A stretch of DNA of 64,000 nucleotides from Candidatus Woesebacteria bacterium (GTDB taxonomy: Bacteria > Patescibacteriota > Microgenomatia > UBA8517). The position numbers were made by a program, and so were the translations under genes. Shown here in pieces: positions 15,229 to 35,006 of this stretch. The stretch is taken from assembly GCA_963716475.1 (NCBI GenBank), contig OY970314.1, positions 74,479 to 138,478 of the forward strand, written 5' to 3'. A model generated the notes under the pieces. The model saw only the letters and a program-made list of their open reading frames with translations, made no database searches and was not told where the DNA came from. Numbering within the stretch: the first letter of the stretch is position 1; every line of letters starts with the position of its first letter.

Positions 15229-15350
15229 TCCTGTAGTTGTTGCGGTAATTATTCTTTTCATAGACCCATAGCATATTCTGGCTTCAGTTTGTGTATATTT
15301 TCACTCAAAATCGTACCATTTCCCTATTTCTTATGTGGCCTATAAGGCTA

Positions 15351-15380
15351 TTGACAAACGTTCCCATGGTTGGTAACAAT
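15351..15380 (+). promoter_or_regulatory. Promoter of giant gene 1: TTGACA-N11-GGTTGGTAACAAT
   Basis: TTGACA at 15351-15356 and TGgTAACAA extended -10-like at 15371-15379. The same 13-mer at the same spacing recurs upstream of giant gene 2. Confidence 0.5.
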
Positions 15381-15394
15381 TAATTAGTAGCAAA

Positions 15395-18300
15395 ATGCCC
15401 ACAAAAGAAAAAATCTCCGCGGTAAAAAAAGTTTTGGAAGGAATTTCTGTCTCTTCTGTTGCATCTGAGGCCGGGGTTGCCAGAAAAACAATATATTCGT
15501 GGCTAAATATTTATAAAGCCGCTGCCAAAAGAAACAAAAAAACCTGTCTCTTGCCCAAATATGTGGCGGGAAGGGCTCACCCGAGGGAATATACGCACAC
15601 TTTGGAGCAGAAGACAGTAAGACTAATAAAGAAGGACCCGACACTTAGCGTTTCCAAAATGGCTGAAAGATTAAACGCAGGACATCATGCGGTTTACAAT
15701 CTTTTAAAGGCCTTAAAATTGAACACAGAAGATTCCAGGCTTGCATACTCCCGGATTTACTCATATCCCGGTATTTTTGACCCCCAAATTAAGGAATCGG
15801 TTGCAAGGAAAATTGTGAATTCGGAAGGAAAAGTCACGGATATTTCCAGGGAGCTACGGGTTTCCAGAAAGACTATATATAAATGGTTAAAAGAATACAA
15901 AGAGAAGGGAACAGTAAGAAATAACTATTTGAAAGGTTTTGAACACCCCAGATCACTTGGCCCGGAGGCGGAAGCGTCAGTGCTCTCGCAAGTCGTAAAG
16001 GCGCCGGAACTTTCAATTCATGCCTTGGCCACCGGTTTAAACTTTTCCAATCATGCGGTTTTTAATATTCTAAAAAGAAATTTCCTGACTCAAAGAAATG
16101 CCAGGATTATCTATTCTCAGGCTCAGGCTATCCGGGTTTCCGAAAAACCGGAAGCTATCGGTTTTATCGACAGGATAAAGAGTGTTTTTGAAACCTTTAC
16201 TCCGAATCTGGCCCCGGCTCCGCCTCCGGGGGGAAAATCCAAGTTTAGCCCTCTTCTTAAAATCTCCCTGGCTTCGATAATCGTTTTACCGCTTTTCACT
16301 CTTGCCCTGGTCTATTGGGTGAATCTATTAAGGTCCGGTGCAGCAGGGAACGTCGTCGGGCTTATCTTTGCCACAATATCCCTGATTATGGGTACTTTCT
16401 TCTTTTTATATTCACTCAAATATTATTTTACGGTCGCTTTGGTTCTTTCCCGCACCCAGCAGGAAGGGTCAAAAAGCCGTACTTCTATCGGTCTTGAACC
16501 CAATCTCGATCACGTAATTCTCACAAAGAAGCCATACATATCAGTTCATATACCTTTTTATAATGAGAAGAATGTAGTAGAGCGTGCAATTGAGGCTTCA
16601 ACCAATTTCGATTACCCGGAGTATGAAGTGATTCTTTGTGATGATTCAACCGATGAAACAACAACCATTATCAGGGATTATCAAAAGAAATATCTTTCAA
16701 AAGGGGAGAGCTTAAAAATAACTACCAATAGTCAAGACGGCTGGGAGCTGTCCCATGTGGATGTCAGACCGGGAGTAACCCTTAAACATCTTCACAGGAT
16801 CTCAAGAGAAGGTTACAAGGGGGGAGCACTCAGGCTAGCTCTTACTCAGACTGATCCCAGGGCTGAGTTTGTCTCTGTCTTTGATGCCGATTTTGTTCCA
16901 TATCCTGATTCTCTAAACCTTTTCCTCAAGTACTTTAAAGCTGAGAATAACATGAGTGAGGATTATACAGTAAGTAAGGTTGCTGCGGTTCAAGGTTACC
17001 AGTGGCATGTACTTAATAAATCCGAAAACTGGATAACCAGGGGTGTCAGAAGTGAATATGCAGGTAGCTACGTTATCGAAAGAGCGGGAACTGAAATCTA
17101 TGGGGGACTAAAACAAATCTCGGGGTCAGTATATATGATTAGACGTAAGCCCCTAGAAGAAGTAGGCTGGGCCACATCAATCACTGAGGACTTTGAACTT
17201 ACTCTCAAACTATATAATGCCGGCTACAAGGTGGTCTATACACCTTATATACAAGCTCCTGCAGAATGTGTATCAACCCTAAGACGCTTAGTGAGGCAAC
17301 GTATGCGTTGGGCCGAGGGTCATTCTTTCAATGTCAAAAAGATGTTTGCAAAGCTTATGTTCTCTCCGAAACTTTCTTCTGCCGAGAAGTTTGAAACGGT
17401 TTACCTTGCCCCTTACTACCTTCAGGCATTCTTTTTTGTAGTCGGAACTCTTTCCTGGTTTATCAGTGAGACTCTCCTGCCTGCCCGTCTGCCTTTCTGG
17501 ACAGAACTTTGGGGATGGAGTCTGGTCTTAACCAACATGGTAGCCCTTCCCCTTATGAACACCGTCGGAATGTTCCTGGAAGAAAGTGAACAGAAGGACT
17601 ATACAGGAATACTATCATTCGTCGCTCTTTCATACCTTGTGGTCCCGTTTCAGGCCTACGCGGCTGTCAAGGGCTTTCTGGAGACCTCAGAAGGGCCTTG
17701 GTTTAGAACTCCCAAGACCGGTAGAATCACAGACGTCTTTGCCAGGGGTAAATTCTACAGGCTTATCAGACAGATCCTTCCCAGAAGAGCCACCTCATTC
17801 CAAAGTACTTATTCATACAACTACATTACCTTAACGACAGCAAATAATAGATTTAGCAATTTTAAAATAAAAAGGTCGGGAAATAAATATATTTCAAAAG
17901 CATTACTTACGGGATTAACGATTATTATTTTACTTTTGAATCAACTTAGCTTCTTTGCCCCGGGAGTACTTGCGGCAAGTCCTAACCCTACTATTGAACA
18001 ACAAATAAATTTTATGGATAAATTATACTCTACAACCAGCACGAGTGCCGCACCGGGCGATAATTCTTTAGGAATGTTTACTTGGAATGACTCAAAATAT
18101 AATAACGCAACTGTTAATATGGACTATGATGCTGGGAAAAGCGGAAACTTGTCTTATGGCCTAACTTCTGTGGGACTTTCTTTGGTTAATGGAACAACAT
18201 ACACACCGGCAATAAGGTATCAATGTCTTGCAGTGAGTGGAATAGCAACCGAATACGCTATTCCAGGGTTATATACGTCAGGTGGAGTTTTAGTTCAATT

Positions 18301-19282
18301 CTCAGAAGTTTCAATTTCTCTCGGCGAGGTTCCGGGTGGGAAATGTCCTACTTCAGCGAACAGAACACCTGCATATATTGCTGCGGCACGCCTAAGAATT
18401 GTACAGACAAATGCTACCGGAATTACAAATACCAGAAACATGATTGAACTGGGAGATGGTGAAACCATTTCAACAGGTACAACAGCAACTCAGCTAACTT
18501 ACCCCAAATATTGGCTTTATACATCGGGAAATTATGACGGGACTGTTACTACGACTTTTGAAGCGACTGTTTGGAGGGCCGGTGGCAGTTCATACACCGC
18601 CTACGTATGTCTGTATTCTACAGCAGGCAGTGAGATCGGGTGTGTGAGTACCACAAGTACATCCCCGGCTTACCCGACCGCAGTAAGCGTAACCCTGTCA
18701 AACGGAACCGAATATGAAGTAAGAGTCAAAGCCAGCGCAGCCGCAAAAACTGTATATATTGCAAACGCTAAAGTTATAGTTGATCAAGCAGCGGCAGGGG
18801 GAATTACCAAATTGGAAACAGTGCAACATTATAATAACACTCTGGCAACGGAATCAACATCTTCCTATGTTTCTAAGCAATTTTTAACCGAGTTTGTTTT
18901 GGATAACTGGTATGGCGGAACGTTTGCTGCCTATTTTGAGTCGGATATAAAGACTAATAACAGTTCAAATGCCTATTATGCTCGTTTGTACGATATTTAT
19001 AATGCTACCCCTATGGGAGAGATTACAGGTAATGATACTTCCTATGTTAGAAAAACCAGTTCGGATATATGGAGTTCTCTTGCTGCGGGTGGCAATACAA
19101 TGATAGACGTTCAACTGAAAAATAATTCGACCAGCACCACCTCATCATCAAATTCTTGGTTAATCATTAAAGTAACAAATTTACAAGTGCCCGAGAAGCT
19201 TATTTTTGCCCTGCCGTTGATATCCTTAATCCCGATTATAATTAAAAAAAGGAAGGAGATTCTATTAAATAGAAATGGTTGA
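15395..19282 (+). CDS. Giant gene 1: tandem HTH - polytopic processive GT2 synthase - variable ectodomain - VPE-CTERM protein
   Basis: 1295 aa. Two HTH modules ('VASEAGVARKTIYSWLNIYK', 'ISRELRVSRKTIYKWLKEYKEKG'). GT2 motifs 'CDDSTDET', 'FDADFVPYPD', 'QGYQWH', 'SITEDFELT' and 'RQRMRWAEGH'. Multiple TM segments and a Ser/Thr/Asn-rich C-terminal ~400 aa, ending 'VPEKLIFALPLISLIPIIIKKRKE'. Confidence 0.85.
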   Translation: MPTKEKISAVKKVLEGISVSSVASEAGVARKTIYSWLNIYKAAAKRNKKTCLLPKYVAGRAHPREYTHTLEQKTVRLIKKDPTLSVSKMAERLNAGHHAVYNLLKALKLNTEDSRLAYSRIYSYPGIFDPQIKESVARKIVNSEGKVTDISRELRVSRKTIYKWLKEYKEKGTVRNNYLKGFEHPRSLGPEAEASVLSQVVKAPELSIHALATGLNFSNHAVFNILKRNFLTQRNARIIYSQAQAIRVSEKPEAIGFIDRIKSVFETFTPNLAPAPPPGGKSKFSPLLKISLASIIVLPLFTLALVYWVNLLRSGAAGNVVGLIFATISLIMGTFFFLYSLKYYFTVALVLSRTQQEGSKSRTSIGLEPNLDHVILTKKPYISVHIPFYNEKNVVERAIEASTNFDYPEYEVILCDDSTDETTTIIRDYQKKYLSKGESLKITTNSQDGWELSHVDVRPGVTLKHLHRISREGYKGGALRLALTQTDPRAEFVSVFDADFVPYPDSLNLFLKYFKAENNMSEDYTVSKVAAVQGYQWHVLNKSENWITRGVRSEYAGSYVIERAGTEIYGGLKQISGSVYMIRRKPLEEVGWATSITEDFELTLKLYNAGYKVVYTPYIQAPAECVSTLRRLVRQRMRWAEGHSFNVKKMFAKLMFSPKLSSAEKFETVYLAPYYLQAFFFVVGTLSWFISETLLPARLPFWTELWGWSLVLTNMVALPLMNTVGMFLEESEQKDYTGILSFVALSYLVVPFQAYAAVKGFLETSEGPWFRTPKTGRITDVFARGKFYRLIRQILPRRATSFQSTYSYNYITLTTANNRFSNFKIKRSGNKYISKALLTGLTIIILLLNQLSFFAPGVLAASPNPTIEQQINFMDKLYSTTSTSAAPGDNSLGMFTWNDSKYNNATVNMDYDAGKSGNLSYGLTSVGLSLVNGTTYTPAIRYQCLAVSGIATEYAIPGLYTSGGVLVQFSEVSISLGEVPGGKCPTSANRTPAYIAAARLRIVQTNATGITNTRNMIELGDGETISTGTTATQLTYPKYWLYTSGNYDGTVTTTFEATVWRAGGSSYTAYVCLYSTAGSEIGCVSTTSTSPAYPTAVSVTLSNGTEYEVRVKASAAAKTVYIANAKVIVDQAAAGGITKLETVQHYNNTLATESTSSYVSKQFLTEFVLDNWYGGTFAAYFESDIKTNNSSNAYYARLYDIYNATPMGEITGNDTSYVRKTSSDIWSSLAAGGNTMIDVQLKNNSTSTTSSSNSWLIIKVTNLQVPEKLIFALPLISLIPIIIKKRKEILLNRNG
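19187..19279 (+). other. C-terminal tripartite sorting-signal-like region (VPEK / Pro-rich hydrophobic / KKRK)
   Basis: 'VPEKLIFALPLISLIPIIIKKRKEILLNRNG' at the extreme C-terminus of giant gene 1. The layout matches PEP-CTERM / archaeosortase signals. Confidence 0.65.
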
Positions 19283-19838
19283 AAAAAGGAAAATTATAAA
19301 TATTTTGCTTATAGCCAGCCTAATTTTGGCTTTACTGCCTTTTTATGTGAGCTTTCAGGATTTACTTACAAATATAGTTATGAAGGTAAATTTGTATAAA
19401 GCTTTACAAAACACAATTGTGCCATATGAAATGAAAGTGGTAGGCGGAATTATAAACCTGTTACGTTTTCCGATTAGCGCAGGCAGTAGTTATTTTTCAT
19501 GGAATATAGCCAATGGTAAAAAAGAAGCAGTCTATTTGGCCTGGAACTGTATTGGTTGGCAGACTATGATACTGTTTTTGGTGACATTAGTTACAGGTTT
19601 TTCAAAAAGACACCTCTTAAGTTCAAAAATTGAAGCTATTTTAATAGGAGCGCTAGGGACATATATAATAAACATTGTAAGGATTACTGTTGTTATTTTG
19701 ATCTATTTCTGGTTTGGCCGGGGGTTTGGAATAATATTCCACGATTACTTCTCATCTCTAATTACAATATTCTGGTTAATAGGGTATTGGCTGTTTGTTT
19801 ATAAACATACCCTAATAGAAAAATCCGTCGAAGAGTAG
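19275..19838 (+). CDS. Miniature exosortase/archaeosortase-like polytopic protein (cassette 1)
   Basis: 187 aa with about 5 hydrophobic segments. Motifs 'AWNCIGWQT', 'INIVRITV' and 'IFHDYFS' are conserved in the paralogues at 33555 and 41283. The ATG overlaps the giant-gene stop by 8 nt. Confidence 0.62.
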   Translation: MVEKRKIINILLIASLILALLPFYVSFQDLLTNIVMKVNLYKALQNTIVPYEMKVVGGIINLLRFPISAGSSYFSWNIANGKKEAVYLAWNCIGWQTMILFLVTLVTGFSKRHLLSSKIEAILIGALGTYIINIVRITVVILIYFWFGRGFGIIFHDYFSSLITIFWLIGYWLFVYKHTLIEKSVEE

Positions 19839-20290: not shown

Positions 20291-20325
20291 ACCGATAGTA
20301 TATAATCTCCGCACCGATAGTATAT
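20291..20325. repeat. Tandem direct 13-mer ACCGATAGTATAT x2 (22-bp period)
   Basis: Exact copies at 20291-20303 and 20313-20325 in the ORF-poor spacer upstream of giant gene 2. Confidence 0.9.
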
Positions 20326-20437: not shown

Positions 20438-20467
20438 TTGACAGGTGTTAGGATGGTTGGTAACAAT
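20438..20467 (+). promoter_or_regulatory. Promoter of giant gene 2: TTGACA-N11-GGTTGGTAACAAT
   Basis: TTGACA at 20438-20443 and the 13-mer at 20455-20467, identical in sequence and spacing to gene 1. The -10-like hexamer ends 7 nt before ATG 20474, which suggests a leaderless mRNA. Confidence 0.5.
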
Positions 20468-20473
20468 GAATAT

Positions 20474-23400
20474 ATGCCCTTTTCCGAAGCTAAAAGAGAA
20501 AAGATCGTTTTATCCGTACTAAAGGATAATATTGCGGTTTCGGAAGTCTCCAGAAACTACTCTGTTGCCCGAAAAACTATTTACTCTTGGATAAAGAGGT
20601 ATAAAAAGGGAAGTCTTGCTCCACTATATACAAAGGGCAGGAAACACCCGGCGGCCGTATACCCGAAAGCCTATTCTTATATAAGTAGATGGGCTGTAGG
20701 GCACCCCAAGTGGGGATGCCGCACTTTGAGTAAAAGATTAAATGAAAAAGGAATCAGCTTGAGCTACGTTCAGGTTAACAGATTGTTGAACACAATCGGA
20801 GCGGAGACTTATGACAGAAGGTTGAATTATGCCAGAAACTTTGCCGGTCCGGGGAGAACCAGGGAGGATGTCAGGCTTGAAATTGTCAAAAAGGCCGTTA
20901 CCGGGAAAATTTCCATTACAACTCTTTCCGAAAACTACAAAGTTGCCCGTAAGACCATATATAAATGGATAGCGAAATACCGGGCCATTGGTAACATTAA
21001 AGATTCGTACGTCGTTGGTGAGGCTCATCCCAAGGCAATCTACCCGAAAATTACGCAGCAAGTACTCGACTTGGTCGTTACAAACCCCGGTTATTCGGTA
21101 CGCACTCTGGCTAAATCATTTCCGGCATCCTCTTGGACCATCTGGAGTATTTTAAATAGAAATAATCTGAATACATATAATTTAAGGCTCGAATATTCCA
21201 GGAATATATCTGAGGCTGCCGAAGAGAAAGTCTCGACAACGGGAGTTTCCGAAAGGATAAGATCTGTTTTTGAAAGCTTTACTCCAAATCTGGCTCCGGC
21301 CCCGCCTCCGGGGAAACGTAAAATCTTCAACTTCTTCATTATTTCAGTCTTCCTCTTATCAATATCCTTAGCAATTTTCTATTGGGGATCCGTAATTGTT
21401 CACGCTCCGAATATTGCCGGGTCCATAGGCATGATTTTTGCAGGCGTCTCACTGTCACTCGGAATGTTTTTCTTCCTTTATTCTCTTAAATACTATATTT
21501 CTACAGCGATAGTGCTTTCATATTCACAGAAAGAGGGCTTAGATGCCTCGAGAGTAAGCGCTACCGGCTTAAACTCAGACCTCAGTAACATTCATCTTGA
21601 ACGGCATCCTTATGTCTCGGTTCATCTGGCTCTCTATAACGAGAAGAATGTGGTGGAAAGACTGATGAAAGCAGCTACTTCTTTCGATTACGACAATTAT
21701 GAAGTAATCATCGCGGATGACTCAACTGATGAAACCACCGACAAAATCAGGGAGTTTCTGAAAACATTCCTTCCTAAAGGTGAATCGCTTCGGCAAACCA
21801 AAGGGGACGGGTGGGCAATGACAGAAGTTGACATAAGGAGCGGGGTTGTCTTTAAACATGTCCATAGAACCACAAGGATGGGTTATAAAGGGGGAGCGCT
21901 GAAGCTTGCCCTTTCTCTTACCGACCCGAAAGCTGAATTTGTTTCTGTCTTTGATGCCGATTTTGTGCCTTACCCAGATTCCCTGATGCTATTTCTTAAA
22001 TACTTCAAACTACAGAATAATGGATCAGAAGACTACAAAACAAGTAATACTGCATCAGTTCAGGGCTATCAGTGGCACGTACTTAATAAATCAGAAAACT
22101 GGATTACTAGGGGAGTCAGAAGTGAGTATGCAGGTAGCTACGTAATAGAAAGAGCCGGAACCGAAATCTACAAAGGCCTAAAGCAAATCTCGGGATCAGT
22201 TTACATGATCAGGCGCGATGTTTTGGAAGGAATAGGTTGGGGTACTTCTATCACTGAGGACTTTGAGCTTACCCTGAAACTCTACGAAAAAGGCTACAAA
22301 GTGGTTTATACGCCGTATATTCAGGCTCCGGCTGAATGCGTATCGACCCTAAGAAGACTTGTCAGACAACGTATGCGTTGGGCGGAAGGACATTCTTTCA
22401 ATGTCAAAAAGATGTTCGCAAAGCTTATGTTCTCTCCAAAACTTTCTTCCGCCGAGAAGTTTGAAACGGTTTATCTTGCCCCTTACTATCTACAGGCATT
22501 ATTCTTCCTCATCGGAACTCTCTCCTGGTTCATTTCGGAAACCATTTTACCCGCCCGCCTTCCTTTCTGGACAGAGCTTTGGGGATGGAGTTTGGTTCTG
22601 ACCAATATGATTTCACTGCCGCTTCTAAACACAGTCGGACTTTTCTTAGAGGAATCGGACAGAAAGGATTACTCGGGTATTCCATCTTTTATAGCTCTTT
22701 CATATATAGTTGTTCCGTTTCAGGCCTATGCGGCTGTAAAAGGCTTTCTGGAGAAGGAGGAAGGACCATGGTTTAGAACTCCGAAAACCGGCCGCATTAC
22801 GGATGTTTTCAAAAGAGGTAAGTTCTACAAATTTATTTCCGGGATCTTGCCGGGGAAGGCTGCCGGTTCTGCCACGAGTTATGATCTAAGTCCTTATCTT
22901 GCCCTGACCTCAGCCAATAATAGATTCAGCTCGTTCTCCATTCAAACAAGAAAAGGCAGAAGGTGGGTGGGAAAACTAATGCTAACCTCAATGCTTATTA
23001 TTTCCAATCTTCTTCTTTCTTTTTCTCCTTATATTGAATCAAGGGACGGCAACAGCCAACCTCCTCCGGGAACAGGTATTCTTATGGATGGCAGTACAAA
23101 AGGATCGGGAGGCAAGGTCAATTTAACTCCTGAGCAGCAGCAGTCTTTGGACAAATCGATTAAAGCGAATAACCAAAAAACAAGCTTTAAACTGGTTAGC
23201 GATGTCTCGGCAGCAGAAATATCCGGAGGCAGTGAGGTGAACACCTCCTTTGATGTTAAAAAGAAAGACCTTGAACTTAGCGGGGGAAATACCACCTTTA
23301 CAACTGATGAAAATCCCCAATTTACCTTAAAGCAGAACGACGGTTTTTGGGAATTTATCAAGAATATTTTCATTAAAGAAAAACCCTTGAAAGATCAGGT

Positions 23401-26400
23401 TGTTGTAACAGTTTTGGACTTAAAAGGTAAGGAGGTGGGAAGCCCGCAGGTGGTAGAAGGTGGAATTGATGATTTAAGTATAAATCTTGACAAAACAACC
23501 CTTACTCCGGGCGGATATACTCTTGAGATCAAAAGTGGGAGTAGCCCCGTTATCACCCAGGATTTCAGTTGGGGAGTGCTGGCAATAAATACCAATAAGT
23601 CGGTATATAGTCCGGGTGAAGACGCCTCCATTTCAATGGGGGTTCTTAATGAAGTTGGAGAAACGCTTTGTAGCGCGGGACTAACGCTTGATATTACAGA
23701 CACGGCAGGCACAGTTACCGCTTTAACCACAAAGGAGGGCACCATTAAAGTCAGCGATGAATGCAGCCTCAAGGGCTTCAGCCTGAAACCCGACTATGAA
23801 GCAGCCTACAAAACAACGGTTGCAGGAAAGTACAGCATGGTTCTGACTGCAGAGACTCTTAACGGCAAATATGTTATCAAGGGTTGGTTTGAGGCAAAAG
23901 ACTCGGTCGATTTTGACGTCGAAACGATTACGGCCTCCAGAATTAATCCGGTTTATGAATACCCGGTTATTTTTATAGTTAAGGCGGGTAAAGACTACAA
24001 TGGCATTGTTGAAGAAAAAGTCCCGGCCGGCTTTGAAATCAGTAAACTCAACGACTTAAAGTTGAATAACTATCTGGATTCTAAAGGGGAAAGTACGGCA
24101 AGCGGTAAACTTCAGGAGACACTGGTTAATGACGGTTCACAGGAGGCGGGACAAAAAACACTCCGTTGGATTGTTGACTGGAAAAAAGACCAGACTTATG
24201 TTCTTGCATACGCTTTTAAAGCGCCGATGGTCAGTCCAGAATTTTATCTACTCGGGCCGCTCTGGATCGGGGCATATGAGGGAGCGGGAGGTTGGCAGAT
24301 AGCCGCGGATAAGGTCCCTGCTGGGATTATTGTCGGTTGGCCGTCAACTGTAGCCTCAATTCCTAATCACTGGAGCAGGGTTTCAGGCGCGGCTCTTGAC
24401 GGGTACTTTTTAAGATCAGTAACAGCAACTGATCCGTCGGGTACTCCCGGAGGAAATGCCAGCCATACTCATTCACCGGCGAGTCATACTCATTCCGTTC
24501 CTGTCCATACACATACAGTTCCCGCTTTTGCCCAATCAACCAATACTTCGGCAACGACGGGTAACTCTACGGGTTCCGCCCGTGATACTCATACTCATGC
24601 GGCATTTAGTTCCGGAAATTCCAACGTAACCGTCAATAATGCCCAGACGGTTCCTTTTGCGGGACTTTCCAATGACCCCGATAATTCAACCGTCATCTGG
24701 ATCCAGTCGGACGGAGACCCGTCTACCGAAATTCCGGTAGGGTCTTATGTTTACTTTGACTCAAACACCATGCCGGGAGCCAACTGGGGTAGAGTAAAGG
24801 GAAATTACTTCCTTAAAGGTGCGGCAACGGGTTTAGGGGGAGGAACCGATACGGTAACAGGTTCCGCAACTCATACCCACGCCGCCTCAGCCGACCATAC
24901 CCATACTGAGGCTGCCCATACCCATTCAGGGAGCTCGGCAGGAGGTTCACTTGCTGTTTCCAGTACGGGAACTGGGTCTTACTCTCCGAGTGGCCATACA
25001 CATACCGTTACCTCAAGCTCCGTTGCGGCAACGGAGGGAGGAGCATCGGTAACCCCGACAGTCGGAGTGGCCGCTCCCTCGGGAGAACCTCCTTGGTACA
25101 AACTTAATATCATTAGTAAGTCTACAGGTGCTAATGAAACTCCTTTAAATGTCATTGCCATGTGGACCGGAACTCTGGCAACAATTCCCGACGGTTGGGT
25201 AATTTGTGACGGAACAAATGGAACTCCAAACCTGGGTACAAACTTTATCAAAGGCGCAAATGCCGACGGGGAGCTCAATACCACCGGGGGTTCCCTTACC
25301 CACACTCATGGGGCAGGCAATACCCATACACATACAATAAATGCTCACGTACACACCTGGACGGTTGGAGCTGCCTCCGGAACCGGTGTTGGATTAACGG
25401 GAAATGGAAGATCAGCCGTGGTCAGTACTCATACACATACCCTCAGCGCTGCGCAAACATCAAGTGGCGGAGGTTCAACAGGAACGGCAACTATTACGGC
25501 CGACTCGCAATCTAATCTTCCTCTCTACAAAGAGGTTGCCTACATTATGTATATCGGTAAGACTGTTGCCGGTAAAGCCTATTCGGATGAAGCAACCAGT
25601 ATCTGGGCCGGTTGTGACAACTCGACTGCCAGAATAAGTTTGGTAGTTAACGGCGGTACAGCCTCCACAACCTCATGCAGCAGTTCAGACGGATCTTTCA
25701 GTTTCAAGAATGTTACTCACGCGACAGATAATCCAATATCGGTATTTTTTAATACCGCAGGTAGCAATGCCGACAAAGGTGTGGCAGTTACTATCGCCAA
25801 CGATGCCACTACTCCGATTACCCTTAATCCCAGAAAAAATATTGTCTGGATGAGGAGTGAGAAAGCAACACCGACCATTACCAACTCCAATCTGGCTCAT
25901 TGTTATGCCTCAACCCCCGCAAGCTGTGCCAATGTCCCGTATTCTGCTTCGGGAGCCAATATAACCCTAACTACTGGAGTTGAGCTTCATGTAGAAAGCA
26001 GTATGACATATGATCCCGGGGGAACCACTGCAACCACCGGTACCGGAAGTCTGCATGTGGATGACAATGCTGTCGCATACTTGGATACTACTGGCAATAC
26101 CATTGCTAATAATATTTTAGTGGATGCCGGGGCGACCATTCATATTGATGCCAGTACGGCAGTAAACGGGGGAAATATCACGGTTACAGGTAACGGAATA
26201 GTATCTTCAGCCGCCGGAACCGTAACTATGGGGGCAAGCGGAACCATTGGGGGAGGATCAACAGGATCTACCTTCCAGTTAACAGATCTTGTTGTTTCTT
26301 CGGGGACTACAACCCTGGGGACGGATGCCGACAATATACTGGACTTTACCGGGGATATCAACGTTTCGGCCGGAGCCGTGCTTGCCATGAACAATAAAAC

Positions 26401-29400
26401 CGCTAATGTAGACGGAGGAAATCTGACGACAACTTCTACCGGGTCAGTTACCTGTTCAGGTTGTACGACTGGCGGTTTAACAATTTCAGGAGTCGGAACA
26501 ACAAATGGTATAGGCGGGGGAGGTGGAGCTATAACTTTATACAACCTGACACTTGACGGATCAACCAATACCACAACAGTCGGGTCAAGCGCCATTACGG
26601 TAACCAATGATGTAACAATAGGTACGGGAAGAACCCTGTCAGGAGCCGCATCAGGAACAATCTATGTGGGACACAACTGGGCCAACAGCGGCACTTACAA
26701 TGCCAACTCGGGAACTATTAATTTAAATGCAGCAGCCGATACTGTTCAACAGATAACAGGTGCGACCACATTTTATAATTTATATGTAGCTACTGGAGAT
26801 AGGATTATTAAATTTGGTTCATCAACCGCTTTTACCATTGATACCGGAGGAACCTTTACGGCAACAGGGGATTCCTGTTCGGCACTTGTGGTAATCCGTT
26901 CAACCACTTCCGGGAGTGCCGCAACAATTACCAAGACAGGTTCCGTTTCCTTCTCATATATAGATATACAGGATATCAACTTTTCGGCTTCTGCCTCGGC
27001 TTCTAATTCAGTCGATTCCGGAAACAACAGTAGTATCGTCATTGCAGCCAATAGCTGTCTTGGTGCATCAACCAATAACCAAGCCGCAACAGGTCATTCA
27101 TTCCAGAGAAAAGTATTCTATGATTCCGGGAATAATGTCTACTGGGGTTTCTACCATGACGGAACCCAGATCGAAGTCAGGTATTCATCAAATAGTGGCT
27201 CTACTTGGAATGTAGAAAATGACCATCTGGTACAAAATACCAACGACTTTTCCGTCTGGGACCAGACAATCTCCTCCTACTACGTCTTTTTGGCAGCCAA
27301 AAGCAGCGACAGTATTGTCTTAAGAAGAGGAACAATAACTTCAGGTGCAATCTCATGGGACAGTGAAACAACTCCGGTTACAGCCTTTACGGGGACGGGT
27401 TCAGGCGATTCTTATTCCTATCCCTATATCTCTGCCGATTCATCCGGTAATCTCTGGGTGGGAGCCAGATATTTTAACGGATCAAGTTATGTCTACAAAG
27501 CAGTCAAAAGTAACAATGCAGGAAGTGCTACCTGGACAAACGCTGCTTTTACCTGGGGAGATCCTTCTCAAATCTCTAATGATCAAGCCGACCCTAACGT
27601 TTTTGGCAATGTAGTATCCATAGGCTCGCTGAATATGTACGCAACATTCGTAGTAGGTACAACTATCAAAGGCTGTAAATACACCAATTCTCCTCCTGCC
27701 TGGAAGAATTCAGCAGGGACAGATTCATGCGTAACAACCGAGGGTAGTGGCGGCGGGGAGTCAACATATTTTGATAGCTTAAGTACCGGGTTAGTTGCGT
27801 ACTGGAAAATGAATGAAACTTCCTGGACAGGAGCGAGTAACGAGGTGGTTGATTCATCAGGCAACGGTAACAATGGAACTCGTGTAGGCGATGCAACAAC
27901 AACGGCTGCAGGGTTTTATAGGTCAGGAACGTTCGATGGGACGGGAGATAGGGTTTCTGTTCCTGACAAGACAGACTGGACATTATCGTCCGGAATAGAT
28001 CTGACATATTCAACCTGGATTAATTATACCGTATTGCCGGGGAGCACCAATTGGCCTGGTATTGTTGAAGGAGGTGATGATATGTATGGTTTCCAAATGA
28101 ATGGGCCCACTACCGGGAATATAGTTGTAGATTGGTGGGACGGTACTGTTGACCATACATCATCTTCGCAGGCTGTATCTGTCGGTACCTGGTATCATGT
28201 CGTGATAACTTTAGATTTTGGTGTAACTAATGGTTCCCATTGGTATTTTAACGGTAGAGACCTTGGAACTTTTACCGCACAAGATCGCAGTGTAAATCCT
28301 GATGCACTATATATCGGAGGTAGTGTTACCAATCCCGTTTCAAACAACGCTGTTAATGGAAAGATTGACGATCTGAGAATTTATAACAGGCTACTCTCTG
28401 GTGAAGAGGTTGCCAAACTTTATCAATATGCCCCGGATAGAGTCAATATCGACGATGCCAGTGATTTTAATGCTCCGTCCGGTAGACAAGTTGTTAGAGC
28501 GAAAAACGGGGATTTGTATACTTTTGTCAATGATGCGGGGACATGTGGGGTATGGAAGTCAACTGATGGAGCAAGTTGGTCAGAACAGGATAGTACTCAT
28601 CATAAAACTTGTATGAGTTATTCGGGGGTATCAATAGCGATTGATTCAACTGATAAGTTACATCTTTTATACGCTTCAGGATCCAACACCTTACAATATG
28701 ACACGTTTACTGCCGGGGCTTTTTCTATTCTTAATGAAAATATTTATAATGATGTTGGTGGCAATGGGCTAGGGGGTTTTGATATTGCTGTTGATGCAAA
28801 TAATATTCCCCACGTAGTCTATGTATACATAGACACGTTTACCGATAATCAACTTGGTTACGATAACCGTGTAGGTGGCGCTTGGAATGGTTCAGATGCT
28901 AACCCCGATACTGATAGTGTCGGATTGCTGTCTCCAACAATAGAGATTAATGAAACTGGGTATCCGGAAGTCTCATATATAAAGGCTAGTACTGGGGTTT
29001 TAGTGGCTAAGGCGGGAAACGGAAATGACCCCAATTTATGGGCAGGTTATAGTATAGATACGAGCGTTAATGTTACTGGCGGTCAGGGGGGTGCTTCAAT
29101 TGCAGTAGACACCTTGACCGGTAATACGTGGATAGCGTATGTCGACGGGGATAACGATATTTCTTTGGCAAAATATTCAGGGACGGATTATTCCGGATGG
29201 GAGACAGCCGGTAACTGGGCCACCGTGACCAGTAAAAGCGACGATGGGTACGACCCGTCAATTGCCATTACCGGACCTTCCGATATTTATGTTTTTTATC
29301 AGGATGATGGGGTGGCGGATAACGGAACTAATAAAAGGATCTCTTACGATATATATGATTCGATAGGAGAAGATTGGGCCGGGGAAGTTCCCCTACAAAC

Positions 29401-31624: not shown

Positions 31625-33550
31625 ATGAAAAGAAAATTTAATTTAAATGTTATCGGTAAGATATTTCTTTTGGCTTCGTTTCTAATACCTTTTGTTATTT
31701 ACCTTAAGACGCTTTGCCCGACGCTTTCCTCCTATGCTGATGCGGGAGAGTTCCCGACCTTTGCTTATATAAGCGGTTTTGCCCATCCTCCTGGGTACCC
31801 CCTGTATATTCTGATACTCAAGTTGTTCCTTTTATTGCCGGTCGCGGGGAGTGTTGCCATGAAAGCCAATTTGGCATCGGCATTTATCTCCGCGGCTTGC
31901 GTCGCCCTTACCTATCTTTGGCTGAGAAGACTAAAATTGGAAGAGGGCGTTGCCTTCACAACCTCGCAAATACTGGCCTTTACACCGATTTTTTGGAGAA
32001 ACGCGTTGATTTCCGAGGTCTTCGGTCTTCTGACGTTATTTATTGTTTTAACCAATTACATGTATCTAAGATGGACCGAGACGGGGGAGAAGAGGGACTT
32101 TTATCTTTTTCTTTTCTTTTGCGGTCTTGGCCTTTCCCATCACCAGCTTTTGATGATAGCTCTTGTTCCGCTTTTAGTGCATTTCATTATTACCAAGAAA
32201 TGGAAATTGATTAATTATAAAAATGTAATAATCGGAATAGCTCTGTTTTTGATTGGGTTCTTACCGTATTTATATATATTGTTATATTCTGCACCGCGTT
32301 GGCCTCTAATGAACTGGAACAACCCCAGCAGTTTGGTAGGTCTTAAGGAATTGATCACCCGTTCGACTTATGGCACTTTTACACTGACGAATCAGTATCA
32401 GGCGTCCGATTTAAAGGTACAGGCCTGGGGGATATTAAAGTTGATTTATAGTAATTATTCGCTTTTTGGAATCGTACTTTTTCCTTTCGGATTAATTTAC
32501 CTCCTTCTAAAAAAGAAGTGGGGCATGACCGCAACCAGCCTCTTTGTAATAATTGCTATTTTTCTTTTCTCCCTCTATTCGGGTATGCCGGTTTTGCAGA
32601 ACAGCCAAATACAATATCTGGAGCGTTTTCAACTTGCAAGCACGGCCTTTATGATTCTTATCATTGCCTTTGGAATTTCCTTTTTCAGGGACCTTGTTTT
32701 TTCCATTAAGCCTCTGAGAGTTCCGGTGCTAATTTTGTTCATGCTGATTCCGGCCGGCCTTGTCTATACAAATTACGCAAAAGTGGATCAAAGTAAAAAT
32801 TACTTTGCAGATAACCTTGCGGATGATATTTTTGCTTCCATCCCTAAAGACAGCATTTTTTTGATGGAGGGGGACAATGTCATTAATGATGTTTTTTATA
32901 ACCGCTACGTTTTGGGACAAAGGAAAGACATCATTTTTATCATAGGCGGACTTATGGACGCCCAGAGTCCCTGGTACCTACAGGAACTGAGGCGTTTTTA
33001 TCCGGACCTGGTTCTGCCTGAAGTTACCGACGACAGAACAGACTACTTAGACGCTTTCCTGGCAGAAAATTCGATAAAAAGGCAAATAATCTTGTATTTA
33101 CCCTCGCTTGAAAACGATTTGGGAATATACATCAATAAAGTAAATAGGGGAATTGTCTGGAAATTTGTCAGGGAGGATGAAGAAGTTTATCTGGGTGATG
33201 TTCAGGATGAAATCCTTGCGCTCACCGGTAGCTACAAAAACCTGAAAGGGAGATTAAATTATACGCTCGATTCTCCCGAATACGCTTTATTGAACCTTTA
33301 TACCCAACCTTATATTTATCTGGCTCAGATGAACGATGACGATCCTGTCTTATCAGAAGAGTACTATAAAAAGGCATTGGCAATTACGCCGGATAATTAT
33401 CAGGCTTTGACCGAGATGGGTGATGACTACTTGATGTATGGGGAGTATGAGAAAGCGGTCGCAAGCTGGAAGCAAGCTCTGAATTATATTTACGATAGTG
33501 ATTTGAGGGATGAAGTTTTGGCAAAAATAGACGAATACCAAAACCAGTAA
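31625..33550 (+). CDS. DUF2723 (TMEM260-like) GT-C membrane glycosyltransferase with C-terminal TPR repeats
   Basis: 641 aa. It has the N-terminal signature 'DAGEFPTFAYISGFAHPPGYPLY', about 10 hydrophobic segments and TPR-like 'EEYYKKALAITPDNYQALTEMGDDYLMYGEYEKAVASWKQAL'. It starts 12 nt after the giant gene 2 stop. Confidence 0.7.
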   Translation: MKRKFNLNVIGKIFLLASFLIPFVIYLKTLCPTLSSYADAGEFPTFAYISGFAHPPGYPLYILILKLFLLLPVAGSVAMKANLASAFISAACVALTYLWLRRLKLEEGVAFTTSQILAFTPIFWRNALISEVFGLLTLFIVLTNYMYLRWTETGEKRDFYLFLFFCGLGLSHHQLLMIALVPLLVHFIITKKWKLINYKNVIIGIALFLIGFLPYLYILLYSAPRWPLMNWNNPSSLVGLKELITRSTYGTFTLTNQYQASDLKVQAWGILKLIYSNYSLFGIVLFPFGLIYLLLKKKWGMTATSLFVIIAIFLFSLYSGMPVLQNSQIQYLERFQLASTAFMILIIAFGISFFRDLVFSIKPLRVPVLILFMLIPAGLVYTNYAKVDQSKNYFADNLADDIFASIPKDSIFLMEGDNVINDVFYNRYVLGQRKDIIFIIGGLMDAQSPWYLQELRRFYPDLVLPEVTDDRTDYLDAFLAENSIKRQIILYLPSLENDLGIYINKVNRGIVWKFVREDEEVYLGDVQDEILALTGSYKNLKGRLNYTLDSPEYALLNLYTQPYIYLAQMNDDDPVLSEEYYKKALAITPDNYQALTEMGDDYLMYGEYEKAVASWKQALNYIYDSDLRDEVLAKIDEYQNQ

Positions 33551-33554: not shown

Positions 33555-34127
33555 ATGAATCAAAAAGCGCTTTTTAAACAAATACTGGCAACCCTTGTAA
33601 TTATATTGGCAGTTTTACCTGTGATTGTGACTTTTTCGGCAGTTTTGACTTCATTTTTCGAAAAAATTAAGCTTTATGTGTGGCTTCAGGATCTGGCTGT
33701 TCCTTTTGAAAGCAGACTGGTTGCGGTTCTAATCCAACTCTTTGGAATCAAAGGAATTATAACCCCCGGCAGCAGTTTTGCCATGGTTTTGCGGACATCC
33801 TCGGGGACTTTTACCCCGGTTGCATTGGAATGGAACTGTTTGGGCTGGCAAAGCCTGATTCTATTGGGTCTTACCCTAATAACAGGCCTCAGGGGAGCTT
33901 ACACGGGTTTAAGTAAAGCCCAGGTTGTTCTTTTCGGAATACTCGGAACTTTTTTATCAAATCTATTCAGGATGGCTTTTATTGTCATTCTGGCTTTTTA
34001 TTGGAATTCATTTGCAGCTATGATTATCCATGATTATTTTGCCAGTTTTGTCGCTATCATCTGGATGTTATTTTTCTGGTGGTTCTCCTACAGGTATATT
34101 TTGGAGGAAAAACCTGCGGGAAACTAA
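33555..34127 (+). CDS. Miniature exosortase/archaeosortase-like polytopic protein (cassette 2)
   Basis: 190 aa with 'EWNCLGWQS', 'SNLFRMAF', 'IIHDYFA' and the tail 'FWWFSYRYILEEK' shared with cassette 3. It starts 4 nt after the upstream stop. Confidence 0.62.
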   Translation: MNQKALFKQILATLVIILAVLPVIVTFSAVLTSFFEKIKLYVWLQDLAVPFESRLVAVLIQLFGIKGIITPGSSFAMVLRTSSGTFTPVALEWNCLGWQSLILLGLTLITGLRGAYTGLSKAQVVLFGILGTFLSNLFRMAFIVILAFYWNSFAAMIIHDYFASFVAIIWMLFFWWFSYRYILEEKPAGN

Positions 34128-34435
34128 ACCAATTTTTGCAATTTGAAATCGGGGAAGAGACGCTTTTTAATCAGGATGTCGCTTTCCTCGCCTATTTTAA
34201 TCGCTTCCAGTAAATTCTTCACCCCAGCCAAATTGATGCCCTTATTTTGCGTTAGGTAGCGTACAAATTGGAGTTTATTGATATCCTCAATGGAGAATAG
34301 TCTTCTTTTGGACTCGGATCGGTAGGGAGTAATGAGCCCGAGACTTTCGTAAAGCATAATTGTCCGTGGATGAACTTTCAAAAGTCTCGCAGCTATGGAT
34401 ATAGGCAGAATTGGACTCTCACTAAGCTCAGTCAT
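34124..34435 (-). CDS. MerR-family transcriptional regulator
   Basis: 103 aa. 'LPISIAARLLKVHPRTIMLYESLGLITPYRSESKRRLFSIEDINKLQFV' is a MerR/HspR-type HTH plus wing. It is divergent from giant gene 3. Confidence 0.75.
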   Translation of the reverse strand: MTELSESPILPISIAARLLKVHPRTIMLYESLGLITPYRSESKRRLFSIEDINKLQFVRYLTQNKGINLAGVKNLLEAIKIGEESDILIKKRLFPDFKLQKLV

Positions 34436-34926: not shown

Positions 34927-35006
34927 TTGACAGATGTTACCCACAAGGTGTTAACATAATATATTAGCATCGTTTTCACGGGATTTAGAAACTAATGTGT
35001 TAACAC
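34927..35006 (+). promoter_or_regulatory. Putative promoter/operator region of giant gene 3 (TTGACA ... TGTTAACAT ... GTGTTAACAC)
   Basis: TTGACA at 34927-34932, TGtTAACAT extended -10-like at 34949-34957, and a 10-bp perfect palindrome GTGTTAACAC at 34997-35006, 6 nt before ATG 35013. Confidence 0.4.

What the first reader, a model, noticed from the sequence alone, without database searches (positions are those of the whole stretch)
20438..20476. Identical promoter architecture (TTGACA-N11-GGTTGGTAACAAT) in front of giant genes 1 and 2; gene 2 probably leaderless
**Seen.**
- 15351-15380 reads TTGACAaacGTTcccATGGTTGGTAACAAT.
- 20438-20467 reads TTGACAggtGTTaggATGGTTGGTAACAAT.
- The spacing is identical and 24 of 30 positions match, although the surrounding intergenic DNA is unrelated.
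- In gene 2 the -10-like hexamer ends 7 nt before ATG 20474, and no Shine-Dalgarno motif fits in between. In gene 1 the gap is 15 nt.

**Consequence for annotation.** The ORF-track start at 20438 (TTG) is the -35 box itself.

**Inference.** A conserved 13-mer overlapping the -10 is more than RNA polymerase needs. It may double as an operator, plausibly for the HTH heads encoded immediately downstream.
Basis: partly seen in the sequence, partly recalled or inferred. Interest (0 to 1): 0.5.

Follow-up and report, generated by a model that had tools for sequence, protein, structure and literature searches.

The report
Conserved promoter-operator of giant glycosyltransferase genes
The 30-base element is the promoter of a family of giant membrane glycosyltransferase genes in tiny uncultured bacteria, and it contains a control site whose sequence changes in step with the DNA-reading helix of the protein each gene encodes, so these proteins most likely regulate their own genes.

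Summary
The window is from a Microgenomates (CPR/Patescibacteria) genome.

The giant genes are paralogs. Each encodes two transposase-like, paired-type HTH modules, two TM helices, a GT2 synthase, a giant surface domain and a VPE-CTERM tail. An exosortase gene follows each one.

The same architecture sits upstream of homologous genes: TTGACA, block 1 GT[TA]CCCA/GTTAGG, block 2 G[GT]TAACA, overlapping a -10 AACAAT. In 74 loci plus the window (821 kb), 49 of 52 pattern matches were family-associated. Only 1 of 252 unrelated upstream regions matched, and that copy is a family promoter displaced by an inserted ORF. Unrelated genes there use canonical TTGACA-N17-TATAAT, so this is not the organism's general consensus.

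Block 2 covaries with residue 2 of the recognition helix in the encoded head:
- Lys pairs with GGTAACA in 25 of 25 genes.
- Thr/Val pairs with GTTAACA.
- Phe/Tyr pairs with C at the second position.
- Four Lys-loss lineages changed exactly the GGTA bases.

That supports autoregulation by the heads, but only by correlation.

Gene 2's geometry puts +1 on the A of ATG 20474. Leaderless spacing is the norm in this window, so that feature is ordinary. No binding or TSS data exist.

The parts
15351..15380 (+). Gene 1 promoter-operator: -35 TTGACA 15351-15356; block 1 GTTCCCA 15360-15366; block 2 GGTAACA 15372-15378; -10 AACAAT 15375-15380. Predicted +1 is about 15387, giving a leader of about 8 nt with no SD.
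   Evidence: identical 15-mer plus GTTCCC in L004 and L051, the other genomes of the same orthologous group
15395..19282 (+). Giant gene 1 (1295 aa): two paired-like HTH modules, two TM helices, GT2, surface domain, VPE-CTERM tail. Identical to database protein P0004.
19275..19838 (+). Exosortase/archaeosortase-family gene, overlapping the end of gene 1 (same operon)
   Evidence: TIGR04178, 38 bits against a cut-off of 23
20438..20467 (+). Gene 2 promoter-operator: -35 TTGACA 20438-20443; block 1 GTTAGGA 20447-20453; block 2 GGTAACA 20459-20465; -10 AACAAT 20462-20467. Predicted +1 is 20474.
   Evidence: ortholog L124 is nearly identical, including the 8-nt gap
20474..31612 (+). Giant gene 2 (3712 aa) with true start ATG 20474. 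TTG 20438 and ATG 20453 are artefactual starts inside the promoter. Recognition helices begin at R33-K34 and R159-K160.
31625..33550 (+). PMT_2/TMEM260-like glycosyltransferase gene in the gene 2 operon
33555..34127 (+). Exosortase/archaeosortase-family gene of the gene 2 operon
34927..34957 (+). Gene 3 promoter-operator (type C variant): -35 TTGACA 34927-34932; block 1 GTTACCCA 34936-34943; block 2 GTTAACA 34950-34956; -10 TAACAT 34952-34957. The spacer is 19 nt and a TGT sits just upstream of the hexamer.
34997..35006 (+). Second block-2 copy, the 10-bp palindrome GTGTTAACAC, 6 nt before the gene 3 start codon. A second GTTAACA/GTTTACA box near the ATG recurs in type C relatives.
35013..41273 (+). 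Giant gene 3 (2086 aa), a paralog. Its recognition helices read SRV.. (X = Val/Val).
41283..41888 (+). Exosortase/archaeosortase-family gene of the gene 3 operon

Best explanation
The 30-bp element is the core promoter of a Microgenomates gene family. The family encodes a transposase-derived paired-like HTH head, a membrane GT2 synthase, and a giant surface domain that carries a C-terminal VPE-TM-basic signal and is probably an exosortase substrate.

RNA polymerase with the housekeeping sigma uses -35 TTGACA and, 18 nt on, -10 AACAAT. In gene 2 transcription should start on the A of ATG 20474, giving a leaderless mRNA. In gene 1 it should start about 8 nt upstream of the ATG.

A family-specific bipartite operator lies in the spacer and across the -10. 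Block 1 is GTTCCCA or GTTAGGA, at about -27 to -21. Block 2 is GGTAACA, at about -15 to -9.

The most likely ligand is the cytoplasmic HTH head of the encoded membrane protein itself. Residue 2 of its recognition helix (K34/K160 in gene 2) would read the second base of block 2. Occupancy would block RNA polymerase, which is negative autoregulation. Genes 1 and 2 share block 2, so cross-regulation between them is possible.

Shown: the sequence, its conservation, its specificity to the family, the covariation, the fold of the head, and the spacing statistics.

Inferred: the transcription start, the binding itself, and the sign of regulation.
For: Promoter:
- Both sites are the top sigma-70-type matches in the region.
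- TTGACA is exact in about 90% of family promoters.

Family specificity:
- TTGACA-N15-19-TAACA has 52 hits in 820,806 bp on both strands. 45 lie directly upstream of family ORFs and 4 more are family-associated.
- The motif is in 25 of 57 family upstream regions against 1 of 252 others, where promoters read TTGACA-N17-TATAAT.

Selection beyond what RNA polymerase needs:
- 23-27 of 30 motif positions are kept among genes whose heads are only 33-48% identical, while the flanks are at random level.
- Even the positions that differ between gene 1 (GTTCCC) and gene 2 (GTTAGG) are conserved within each orthologous group across genomes.

Covariation:
- Lys at recognition-helix residue 2 pairs with GG at the first two block-2 positions in 25 of 25 genes (GGTAACA in 24, GGTTACA in L038). 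In the 17 genes tabulated both modules carry Lys.
- None of about 40 genes with another residue has GGTAACA.
- Thr/Val/Ala pairs with GTT[AT]ACA, Gln with [TCA]TTAACA, and Phe/Tyr with C at position 2.
- Four Lys-loss lineages inside gene 2's own clade (D/D, G/N, N/D, R/R) changed exactly GGTA. They kept TTGACA, block 1 and ACAAT.

Head structure:
- It hits the DNA-binding part of IS481/IS630 transposases.
- The AF2 model has pLDDT 88. It shows two modules of two 3-helix bundles, with the recognition helices starting at R33 and R159.
- The best folds are Pax paired domain-DNA complexes and the Tc3 bipartite domain.
- Two TM segments separate the head from the GT2 domain, so both face the cytoplasm.

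Leaderless start:
- 11 of 13 operon-first genes in the window have a -10-like hexamer ending 6-11 nt before the ATG. SD-like motifs occur in 5 of 40 genes.
- The 8-nt gap is kept in the fetched ortholog L124. It is also implied by the 'MVGN..' N-termini of P0002 and P0003.
Against: - There are no TSS or binding data. Everything is comparative.
- The covariation is partly confounded by common descent, with perhaps 6-8 independent changes. There is no one-to-one code: Pro pairs with both GTTTACA and CTTTACA.
- A polytopic membrane protein acting on DNA needs its gene to sit at the membrane. That is plausible through co-transcriptional insertion but unproven.
- A generic version of the pattern also matched unrelated promoters in metagenomes: Phd/YefM-like antitoxin genes in 8 loci and MerR genes in 2 loci. 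Such sequences can therefore serve other repressors.
- An HspR-like regulator gene neighbours family genes in at least 13 loci, including gene 3, and is not excluded as the ligand.
- Operator-only copies without a -35 are near chance overall: 26 hits against 24 in a shuffle.
- Only 64 kb of a 983-kb genome could be searched, so the size of the regulon is unknown.
- The -10 register (AACAAT at 18 nt or TAACAA at 17 nt) is inferred.
Confidence: 0.62

Rival explanations
1. The operator is real, but a separate trans-acting regulator binds it. Candidates are the HspR-like MerR-family protein encoded next to gene 3 and next to many homologs, or another Microgenomates factor. The fused HTH heads would then do something else.
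For: An HspR-like gene lies divergently upstream of family genes in at least 13 loci and in the window at 34127-34435(-). Type C promoters have 19-nt spacers, as MerR-type promoters do. A genuine MerR promoter matched the generic pattern (L090/L111). Relatives without the head carry HTH_17/MerR-type heads or neighbours.
Against: The motif does not fit the HspR operator consensus CTTGAGT-N7-ACTCAAG (own knowledge). A HAIR-like TTGACA-N7-TATCAA sits at the HspR-like gene's own promoter instead. Genes 1 and 2 have no such neighbour, and their spacers are 17-18 nt. A single shared regulator does not predict operator variants that are specific to each paralog, conserved across genomes, and tracking the recognition helix of the downstream protein.
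Confidence: 0.17
2. It is only a promoter. The conserved spacer and the extended -10 reflect contacts with RNA polymerase/sigma that set a particular strength, and no dedicated regulator is involved.
For: The -35 is perfect. A G at -14 and TG-type motifs sit next to the -10 in many copies. High or tuned expression of a giant gene could select for a fixed promoter.
Against: Other promoters in the same genomes show no spacer conservation and use TATAAT-like -10 boxes. Spacer blocks differ between paralogs yet are conserved within orthologous groups. Block 2 covaries with a residue of the encoded HTH. Block-2 copies recur next to the start codon, without any -35, in type C.
Confidence: 0.1
3. The element is the terminal inverted repeat of an insertion sequence, and the HTH head is its transposase DNA-binding domain still acting in transposition.
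For: The head is homologous to the IR-binding N-terminus of IS481/IS630 transposases. Its fold resembles the Tc3 and IstA DNA-binding domains. IS left ends often contain the transposase promoter (own knowledge).
Against: Pfam and NCBIfam scans of the three giant proteins and of the gene 2 head reported no transposase catalytic (DDE-type) domain. No inverted second copy of the motif lies downstream, and minus-strand hits are absent. The genes are stable, syntenic paralogs with exosortase partners across genomes. As an account of evolutionary origin, a domesticated DBD plus its site remains possible and is compatible with the best explanation.
Confidence: 0.03
4. The conserved ATGGTTGGTAAC is coding. 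Translation would start at ATG 20453 (MVGNNEYMPF...), as gene callers assumed for several homologs.
For: ATG 20453 is in frame. Five database homologs are annotated with MVGN... N-termini.
Against: In gene 1 the same ATG is followed by a stop after 5 codons, and in L004 it is out of frame. Being in frame follows automatically from the conserved 8-nt gap. The TTGACA 9 nt upstream could not drive a transcript that contains this ATG. DNA-level conservation extends through non-ATG variants of types B and C.
Confidence: 0.02

Closest known systems
Autoregulation of IS transposase promoters through binding of the transposase N-terminal HTH to the terminal inverted repeat (IS481/IS630/Tc1-mariner paired-like domains; IS1 InsA, IS2 TnpA repressor)
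   Same: The DNA-binding fold and sequence family are the same. In both, the binding site overlaps the promoter of the gene that encodes the binder.
   Different: There is no transposase catalytic domain, no second inverted end and no mobility. The domain is duplicated in tandem and fused to a membrane GT2 synthase. The site has become a fixed chromosomal operator with variants specific to each paralog.
Membrane-integral one-component regulators (ToxR, CadC, TcpP, BcrR)
   Same: An N-terminal cytoplasmic DNA-binding domain is tethered to the membrane by TM helices in the same polypeptide. The target promoter must come to the membrane.
   Different: Those use winged-helix OmpR-type or XRE-type domains and are dedicated sensors. 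Here the output domain sits on a processive glycosyltransferase and a giant surface protein of up to 3712 aa, and the predicted target is its own promoter.
Bifunctional enzyme-repressors (PutA, BirA, NadR)
   Same: An enzyme carries an N-terminal DNA-binding domain that represses its own gene or operon. PutA switches between DNA and membrane.
   Different: PutA is a peripheral protein with an RHH domain. The proteins here are polytopic, with a paired-like HTH. No ligand or switch is known.
MerR-type promoters (dyad operator within a 19-20 bp spacer)
   Same: The operator lies between -35 and -10. The type C relatives, including gene 3, have 19-nt spacers.
   Different: Genes 1 and 2 have 17-18 nt spacers. 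The operator is offset over the -10 rather than centred. The covarying protein is not MerR-like.
Leaderless transcription units of Actinobacteria/Deinococcus type (-10 box about 7 nt upstream of the AUG, no SD)
   Same: The geometry is the same in gene 2 and in most operon-first genes of the window.
   Different: No difference in kind. It is simply seen here in a Microgenomates genome, and TSS have not been mapped.
Exosortase/PEP-CTERM systems paired with a GT2 glycosyltransferase (for example XrtG)
   Same: A small exosortase-family gene lies next to a GT2 gene. The substrate ends in a P-E-x motif, a TM helix and a basic tail.
   Different: GT2 enzyme, substrate domain and sorting signal are fused in one giant polypeptide that also carries a DNA-binding head.

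Membership tests
Sigma-70-type (housekeeping) promoter | -35 TTGACA-like and -10 TATAAT-like hexamers 16-18 nt apart, with A at -11 and T at -7 | tested here: met
   TTGACA, 18 nt, AACAAT, 10 of 12, at both sites. Lineages that changed GGTA keep nACAAT.
Sigma-70-type (housekeeping) promoter | Transcription starts 6-8 nt downstream of the -10 | not testable with these tools
   No transcript data are available.
Leaderless mRNA | -10 box ends about 6-8 nt before an AUG start, and no SD fits in between | tested here: met
   Gene 2 has 6 nt (gaatat) between the hexamer and the ATG. The same gap occurs in the fetched ortholog L124 and is implied for P0002 and P0003. In the window, 11 of 13 operon-first genes show this spacing. 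Gene 1 has 14 nt, so a short leader rather than none.
Leaderless mRNA | Mapped 5' end coincides with the start codon | not testable with these tools
   Needs dRNA-seq or 5' RACE.
Autoregulatory operator overlapping its own promoter | Conservation beyond the RNA polymerase contact hexamers | tested here: met
   Blocks 1 and 2 are conserved across genomes while the flanks are random.
Autoregulatory operator overlapping its own promoter | Site restricted to the regulator's own gene(s) | tested here: met
   49 of 52 hits are family-associated, and 1 of 252 unrelated upstream regions matches. Only 64 kb of the source genome was available.
Autoregulatory operator overlapping its own promoter | Operator bases covary with specificity residues of the regulator | tested here: met
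   Lys pairs with GG in 25 of 25. Thr/Val pairs with GT and Phe/Tyr with C. Lys-loss lineages changed GGTA. Phylogenetic non-independence is not fully controlled.
Autoregulatory operator overlapping its own promoter | Physical binding and an effect on transcription | not testable with these tools
   Needs EMSA, footprinting or a reporter assay.
MerR-type promoter | 19-20 bp spacer with a centred dyad, and a MerR-family regulator | tested here: not met
   Genes 1 and 2 have a 17-18 nt spacer, the operator is offset over the -10, and no MerR gene is adjacent. Gene 3 has a 19-nt spacer and an HspR-like neighbour, so it remains inconclusive.
HspR operator (HAIR) | Inverted repeat CTTGAGT-N7-ACTCAAG (consensus from own knowledge) | tested here: not met
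   No TTGA-N11-TCAA arrangement exists in the motif. A HAIR-like TTGACA-N7-TATCAA is found at the HspR-like genes' own promoters.
Insertion-sequence terminal inverted repeat | Two inverted copies flanking a transposase that has a catalytic domain | tested here: not met
   No inverted copy exists. Pfam and NCBIfam report no catalytic transposase domain in the giant proteins. Only the DNA-binding domain is transposase-like.
Known structured RNA (Rfam) | Match to a covariance model | tested here: not met
   Only two tRNAs reach gathering score in the window. Nothing significant lies at 15200-15500.

The most novel reading that the evidence does not exclude
A polytopic membrane glycosyltransferase fused to a giant surface protein reads its own promoter directly. 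It would do so through a tandem pair of domesticated transposase (paired-like) DNA-binding modules. Paralogs in one genome would be kept apart by a simple recognition code: helix residue 2 Lys pairs with G, Thr/Val with T, and Phe/Tyr with C at operator position 2. Because the mRNA is leaderless and the product inserts co-translationally, the gene would be held at the membrane next to its own repressor. That would be a self-contained feedback loop counting how many synthase molecules are in the membrane.
Probability: 0.5. Interest if true: 0.75.

Novelty: new variant of a known kind. Interest (0 to 1): 0.62.

Why it matters
CPR/Patescibacteria have tiny genomes and very few recognisable regulators, and almost nothing is known about how they control genes. 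This work yields several concrete, testable things:
- A deeply conserved cis-element, with a candidate regulator and a predicted amino-acid-to-base recognition rule.
- An example of a transposase DNA-binding domain recruited as the regulatory head of a cell-envelope enzyme.
- A correction to start-codon annotation. Gene callers place starts on the -35 box or on the ATG inside the operator, producing 'MVGN...' N-termini in public databases.
- Spacing evidence that leaderless initiation is the default in this lineage, which affects gene calling for these genomes.

The genes themselves combine a GT2 synthase, a giant surface domain and an exosortase signal. They are likely major determinants of the cell surface, which in these episymbionts is the interface with the host.

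Tried and rejected
- Exact look-ups of gene 1 / P0004 in the contig index found nothing. The cluster look-up gave no name. The source genome (a 982,852-bp contig) is not in genome contigs, so the rest of the genome could not be searched for the 13-mer.
- P0014 lies at a contig edge and has no upstream DNA.
- Literature searches returned nothing relevant. They covered Microgenomates with glycosyltransferase and HTH, Patescibacteria or CPR with leaderless, exosortase with Patescibacteria, and membrane-bound HTH glycosyltransferases.
- RNA element: rejected. There is no Rfam match, and the element lies upstream of the predicted +1.
- Gene conversion as the cause of the gene 1 / gene 2 identity: rejected (plus the cross-genome conservation).
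- General promoter consensus: rejected.
- A general second operator without a -35: the PWM scan gave 26 such hits against 24 in a shuffle. Only a few convincing cases stand out (L046, L028; block 2 alone in gene 3 and other type C leaders).
- Orphan motif copies (L006 537, L010 5034) and the long intergenic regions are not decayed head-coding remnants.
- A strictly palindromic, dimer-type reading of the operator fits some variants (GTTCCC/GGTAAC, 5 of 6) but not gene 2's GTTAGG or the type C left arm. It is left open.
- The unbiased metagenome scan with a generic pattern returned both family promoters and unrelated antitoxin and MerR promoters. The loose pattern alone is therefore not diagnostic. 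The full family signature is.
Full report
**1. Observation.** 15351-15380 reads TTGACAaacGTTcccATGGTTGGTAACAAT and 20438-20467 reads TTGACAggtGTTaggATGGTTGGTAACAAT, and 24 of 30 positions match. The degenerate 24-base pattern matches nowhere else in the window even with 3 mismatches allowed, and never in 100 shuffles. The exact 13-mer occurs only twice. DNA on either side is unrelated, with 11 of 60 identical upstream. The two genes are at most about 78% identical over their best-conserved 300 nt, so the 15/15 core is not a trace of recent gene conversion. The ORF track starts gene 2 at TTG 20438, which is the -35 hexamer. A second in-frame ATG at 20453 lies inside the motif. In gene 1 the equivalent ATG meets a stop after five codons, and in L004 it is out of frame, so the element is non-coding and the start is ATG 20474.

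**2. The genes.** Genes 1 (15395-19282), 2 (20474-31612) and 3 (35013-41273) are paralogs, 51-58% identical over a head of about 850 aa.
- Each begins with two tandem HTH modules. Pfam assigns HTH_28/HTH_32/HTH_23, and NCBIfam's best hit is the N-terminus of IS481 and IS630 transposases.
- Two hydrophobic segments follow, then a GT2 glycosyltransferase with further TM segments, a large variable domain, and a C-terminal VPE-TM-basic tail.
- Each gene is followed by a gene of about 190 aa from the exosortase/archaeosortase family. Gene 2 is also followed by a PMT_2-like gene.
- An AlphaFold model of gene 2 residues 1-280 (pLDDT 88) shows two modules, each of two three-helix bundles. The recognition helices begin at R33-K34 and R159-K160.
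- Its nearest solved folds are Pax paired domains on DNA and the bipartite Tc3 transposase domain.
- Homologs carry Patescibacteria/Microgenomates names such as Woese-, Chisholm-, Curtiss-, Davies- and Gottesmanbacteria.
- Gene 1 is identical to a database protein from a 982,852-bp contig.

**3. The motif travels with the gene family.** I fetched 74 loci from other genomes that encode relatives and read their upstream DNA. Nearly all show the same layout: TTGACA, 2-4 nt, block 1 (GT[TA]CCCA or GTTAG.), 5-6 nt, block 2 (G[GT]TAACA), then A/T.
- L004, a single-cell genome, has TTGACAgctGTTcccATGGTTGGTAACAAT.
- L124, the closest ortholog of gene 2, has ...gagcctgtagttagtacTTGACAgatGTTAGGATGGTTGGTAACAATggatatATG.
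- Across 820,806 bp on both strands, TTGACA-N15-19-TAACA occurs 52 times. 45 hits are directly upstream of family ORFs.
- Four more are family-associated: a family gene lacking an ATG, a promoter separated from its gene by an inserted four-helix-bundle ORF, and two orphan copies just upstream of family genes.
- About three hits look like chance.
- With crude gene calls, the motif is in 25 of 57 family upstream regions against 1 of 252 others. The other promoters in these genomes are canonical TTGACA-N17-TATAAT.

Relatives that lack the transposase-like head carry HTH_17/MerR-type heads or neighbours instead, and they lack the motif.

**4. Selection beyond what RNA polymerase needs.** Among type A genes the heads are only 33-48% identical, yet 23-27 of 30 motif positions are retained while flanks are at random level. 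The positions that differ between gene 1 and gene 2 are themselves conserved within each orthologous group. GTTCCC appears in gene 1, L004 and L051. GTTAG[GCT] appears in gene 2, L124, L013, L016b, L001 and L120. Operator subtypes map cleanly onto the head phylogeny. Gene 3 belongs to type C: TTGACAgatGTTACCCAcaaggtGTTAACAT, with a 19-nt spacer and a 56-nt leader. It has a second copy of block 2, the palindrome GTGTTAACAC at 34997-35006, just before its ATG. That second copy recurs in type C relatives.

**5. Covariation with the encoded HTH.** Take X as the residue after the invariant Arg at the start of each recognition helix (G-[VI]-[SA]-R-X-T-[IF]-Y-x-W). It tracks block 2 as follows.

| X residue | Block 2 |
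|---|---|
| Lys (both modules in the 17 genes) | GG at positions 1-2, 25 of 25 (GGTAACA in 24, GGTTACA in L038) |
| Thr/Val/Ala | GTT[AT]ACA |
| Gln | [TCA]TTAACA |
| Phe/Tyr | G/T-C-T-[AT]-ACA |

No gene with another residue has GGTAACA.

I tested the rule on homologs chosen for unusual residues and fetched afterwards. The Gln prediction held. The others gave new variants consistent with the pattern.
- P0072 (Gln) has TTTAACA, as predicted.
- P0005 (Asn/Asp) has TACGACA.
- P0061 (Tyr) has GCTTACA.
- P0001 (Lys) has GGTAACA.

Inside gene 2's own clade, four lineages lost Lys: L001 D/D, L002 G/N, L120 N/D and L003 R/R. They changed exactly the GGTA bases (to TCTG, TATG, TACG and TGGC) while keeping TTGACA, block 1 and ACAAT.

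Two conclusions follow. First, the -10 is nACAAT, that is AACAAT with an 18-nt spacer, keeping A-11 and T-7. Second, GGTA is read by something other than sigma, most simply by the residue that covaries with it. Caveats: common descent inflates the counts, I estimate only 6-8 independent changes, and the code is not one-to-one.

**6. Leaderless question.** With AACAAT ending at 20467, the canonical +1 is 20474, the A of the start codon, and no SD fits in the 6 nt between. The 8-nt TAACA-to-ATG gap is kept in the fetched ortholog L124. It is also implied by the N-termini of P0002 and P0003. Gaps of 7-10 nt recur in other branches (L004, L041, L056, L030, L048, L070, L010, L026). Other members have leaders of 12-30 or 40-170 nt. 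In this window 11 of 13 operon-first genes have a TAnn[AT]T hexamer ending 6-11 nt before the ATG, and only 5 of 40 genes have an SD-like motif. Leaderless or near-leaderless initiation is therefore the organism's habit. Gene 2 conforms to it, and gene 1 would have a leader of about 8 nt.

**7. Mechanism (inferred).** The promoter is intrinsically strong, with a consensus -35. The operator lies across the spacer and the -10, so occupancy should exclude RNA polymerase. Two TM helices separate the head from the GT2 domain, which puts the head in the cytoplasm. A paired-like module typically contacts two major grooves about 11-12 bp apart (own knowledge of Pax and Tc3 complexes). That fits two 7-bp blocks whose centres lie 12-13 bp apart. 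I therefore favour negative autoregulation by the membrane-anchored product, with possible cross-talk between genes 1 and 2 because they share block 2. For type C, with its 19-nt spacer, activation by DNA distortion cannot be excluded.

**8. Rivals.**
- A separate regulator, notably the HspR-like MerR-family gene at 34127-34435(-). It neighbours family genes in at least 13 loci. It has its own HAIR-like promoter, is absent next to genes 1 and 2, and does not explain the covariation.
- A promoter with no regulator. This is contradicted by sections 4 and 5.
- An active IS end. No catalytic transposase domain was reported and there is no inverted partner.
- Coding sequence (see section 1).
- A structured RNA. 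There is no Rfam hit, and the element lies upstream of +1.

**9. Limits.** There are no transcript or binding data. Only 64 kb of the source genome could be searched. An unbiased metagenome scan with a loosened pattern also returned unrelated autoregulated promoters: Phd/YefM-like antitoxin genes in 8 loci and MerR genes in 2 loci. The loose pattern alone is not diagnostic. No literature on this family or motif was found in the searchable library.

**10. Verdict.** The element is a family-specific promoter-operator conserved across Microgenomates. It most likely acts in autoregulation through domesticated transposase HTH heads (confidence about 0.6). The leaderless geometry is real but ordinary for this organism. 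I rate it a new variant of a known kind, with interest 0.62.

Noticed in passing
window 19275-19838, 33555-34127, 41283-41888; C-termini of genes at 19282, 31612, 41273: Each giant gene is followed by an exosortase/archaeosortase-family gene (TIGR04178 above cut-off). Each giant protein ends in VPE-x, a TM helix and a KKRK-like tail, which looks like a PEP-CTERM-type sorting signal. GT2 enzyme, substrate and sorting signal are thus fused in one polypeptide.
   Followed up: partly
window 34127-34435 (-) and its promoter around 34470-34490; L007, L009, L016, L017, L028, L043 and others: An HspR-like MerR-family gene (103 aa) lies divergently upstream of gene 3 and is a conserved neighbour of family genes in at least 13 other loci. 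Its own promoter has a recurrent TTGACA-N7-TATCAA(CTTTTAT) arrangement, always 49-52 nt before the ATG, which resembles the HspR inverted repeat.
   Followed up: partly
whole window, e.g. starts at 134, 2255, 4197(-)/5399, 5467, 11564, 13846, 31625, 34435(-): Most operon-first genes have a TATAAT-like hexamer ending 6-11 nt before the ATG and no Shine-Dalgarno (SD-like motif in 5 of 40 genes). Leaderless or near-leaderless initiation appears to be the default in this genome. The PMT-like gene at 31625 seems to have its own internal leaderless promoter (TACAAT, then 6 nt, then ATG).
   Followed up: partly
window 20291-20302 and 20313-20324; also L124 462-472, L020 4771-4781: The direct repeat ACCGATAGTATA occurs twice, 22 nt apart, in the 600-nt non-coding region upstream of the gene 2 promoter. 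One copy is also present upstream of the gene 2 ortholog and of another family gene. Its function is unknown.
   Followed up: partly
window 35006-35012; L016, L021, L022, L025, L029, L047, L015, L020, L099: CTGCC(C) lies immediately before the start codon in gene 3 and many type C relatives. It is not complementary to an anti-SD. It may be part of the second operator or of an unusual translation-initiation signal.
   Followed up: no
upstream of -35 in many family promoters, e.g. window 15339-15347 (cctataagg), 34893-34899; downstream of TAACA in type C: Short (C/T)ATAG blocks recur about 5-12 nt upstream of TTGACA and about 5-10 nt downstream of block 2. This suggests further conserved contacts, either an UP-like element or sites for the second HTH module.
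   Followed up: no
L006 537-564 and L010 5034-5060: Orphan full copies of the type B promoter-operator lie 0.6-0.9 kb upstream of the family gene's own copy. No ORF follows them and there is no detectable head-coding remnant. They might drive a non-coding RNA or act as auxiliary operators.
   Followed up: partly
L015 5220-5700: A 137-aa four-helix-bundle ORF, of the type found in 23S rRNA intervening sequences, is inserted between a type C promoter and its family gene.
   Followed up: no
L078, L085, L087, L089, L095, L107, L117, L118 (metagenome contigs): Eight contigs carry TTGACAATGTTCCCACATATATGGTAACA about 20-30 nt upstream of an 80-aa MKYVGVRELKE... ORF, which looks like a Phd/YefM-like antitoxin. 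This is a near-palindromic operator that resembles the family motif but has a different spacing.
   Followed up: no
database proteins P0001, P0002, P0003, P0044, P0056: Public gene calls for five homologs begin with MVGN..., that is at the ATG inside the operator (ATGGTTGGTAAC). This is a systematic start-codon mis-annotation for the family.
   Followed up: yes
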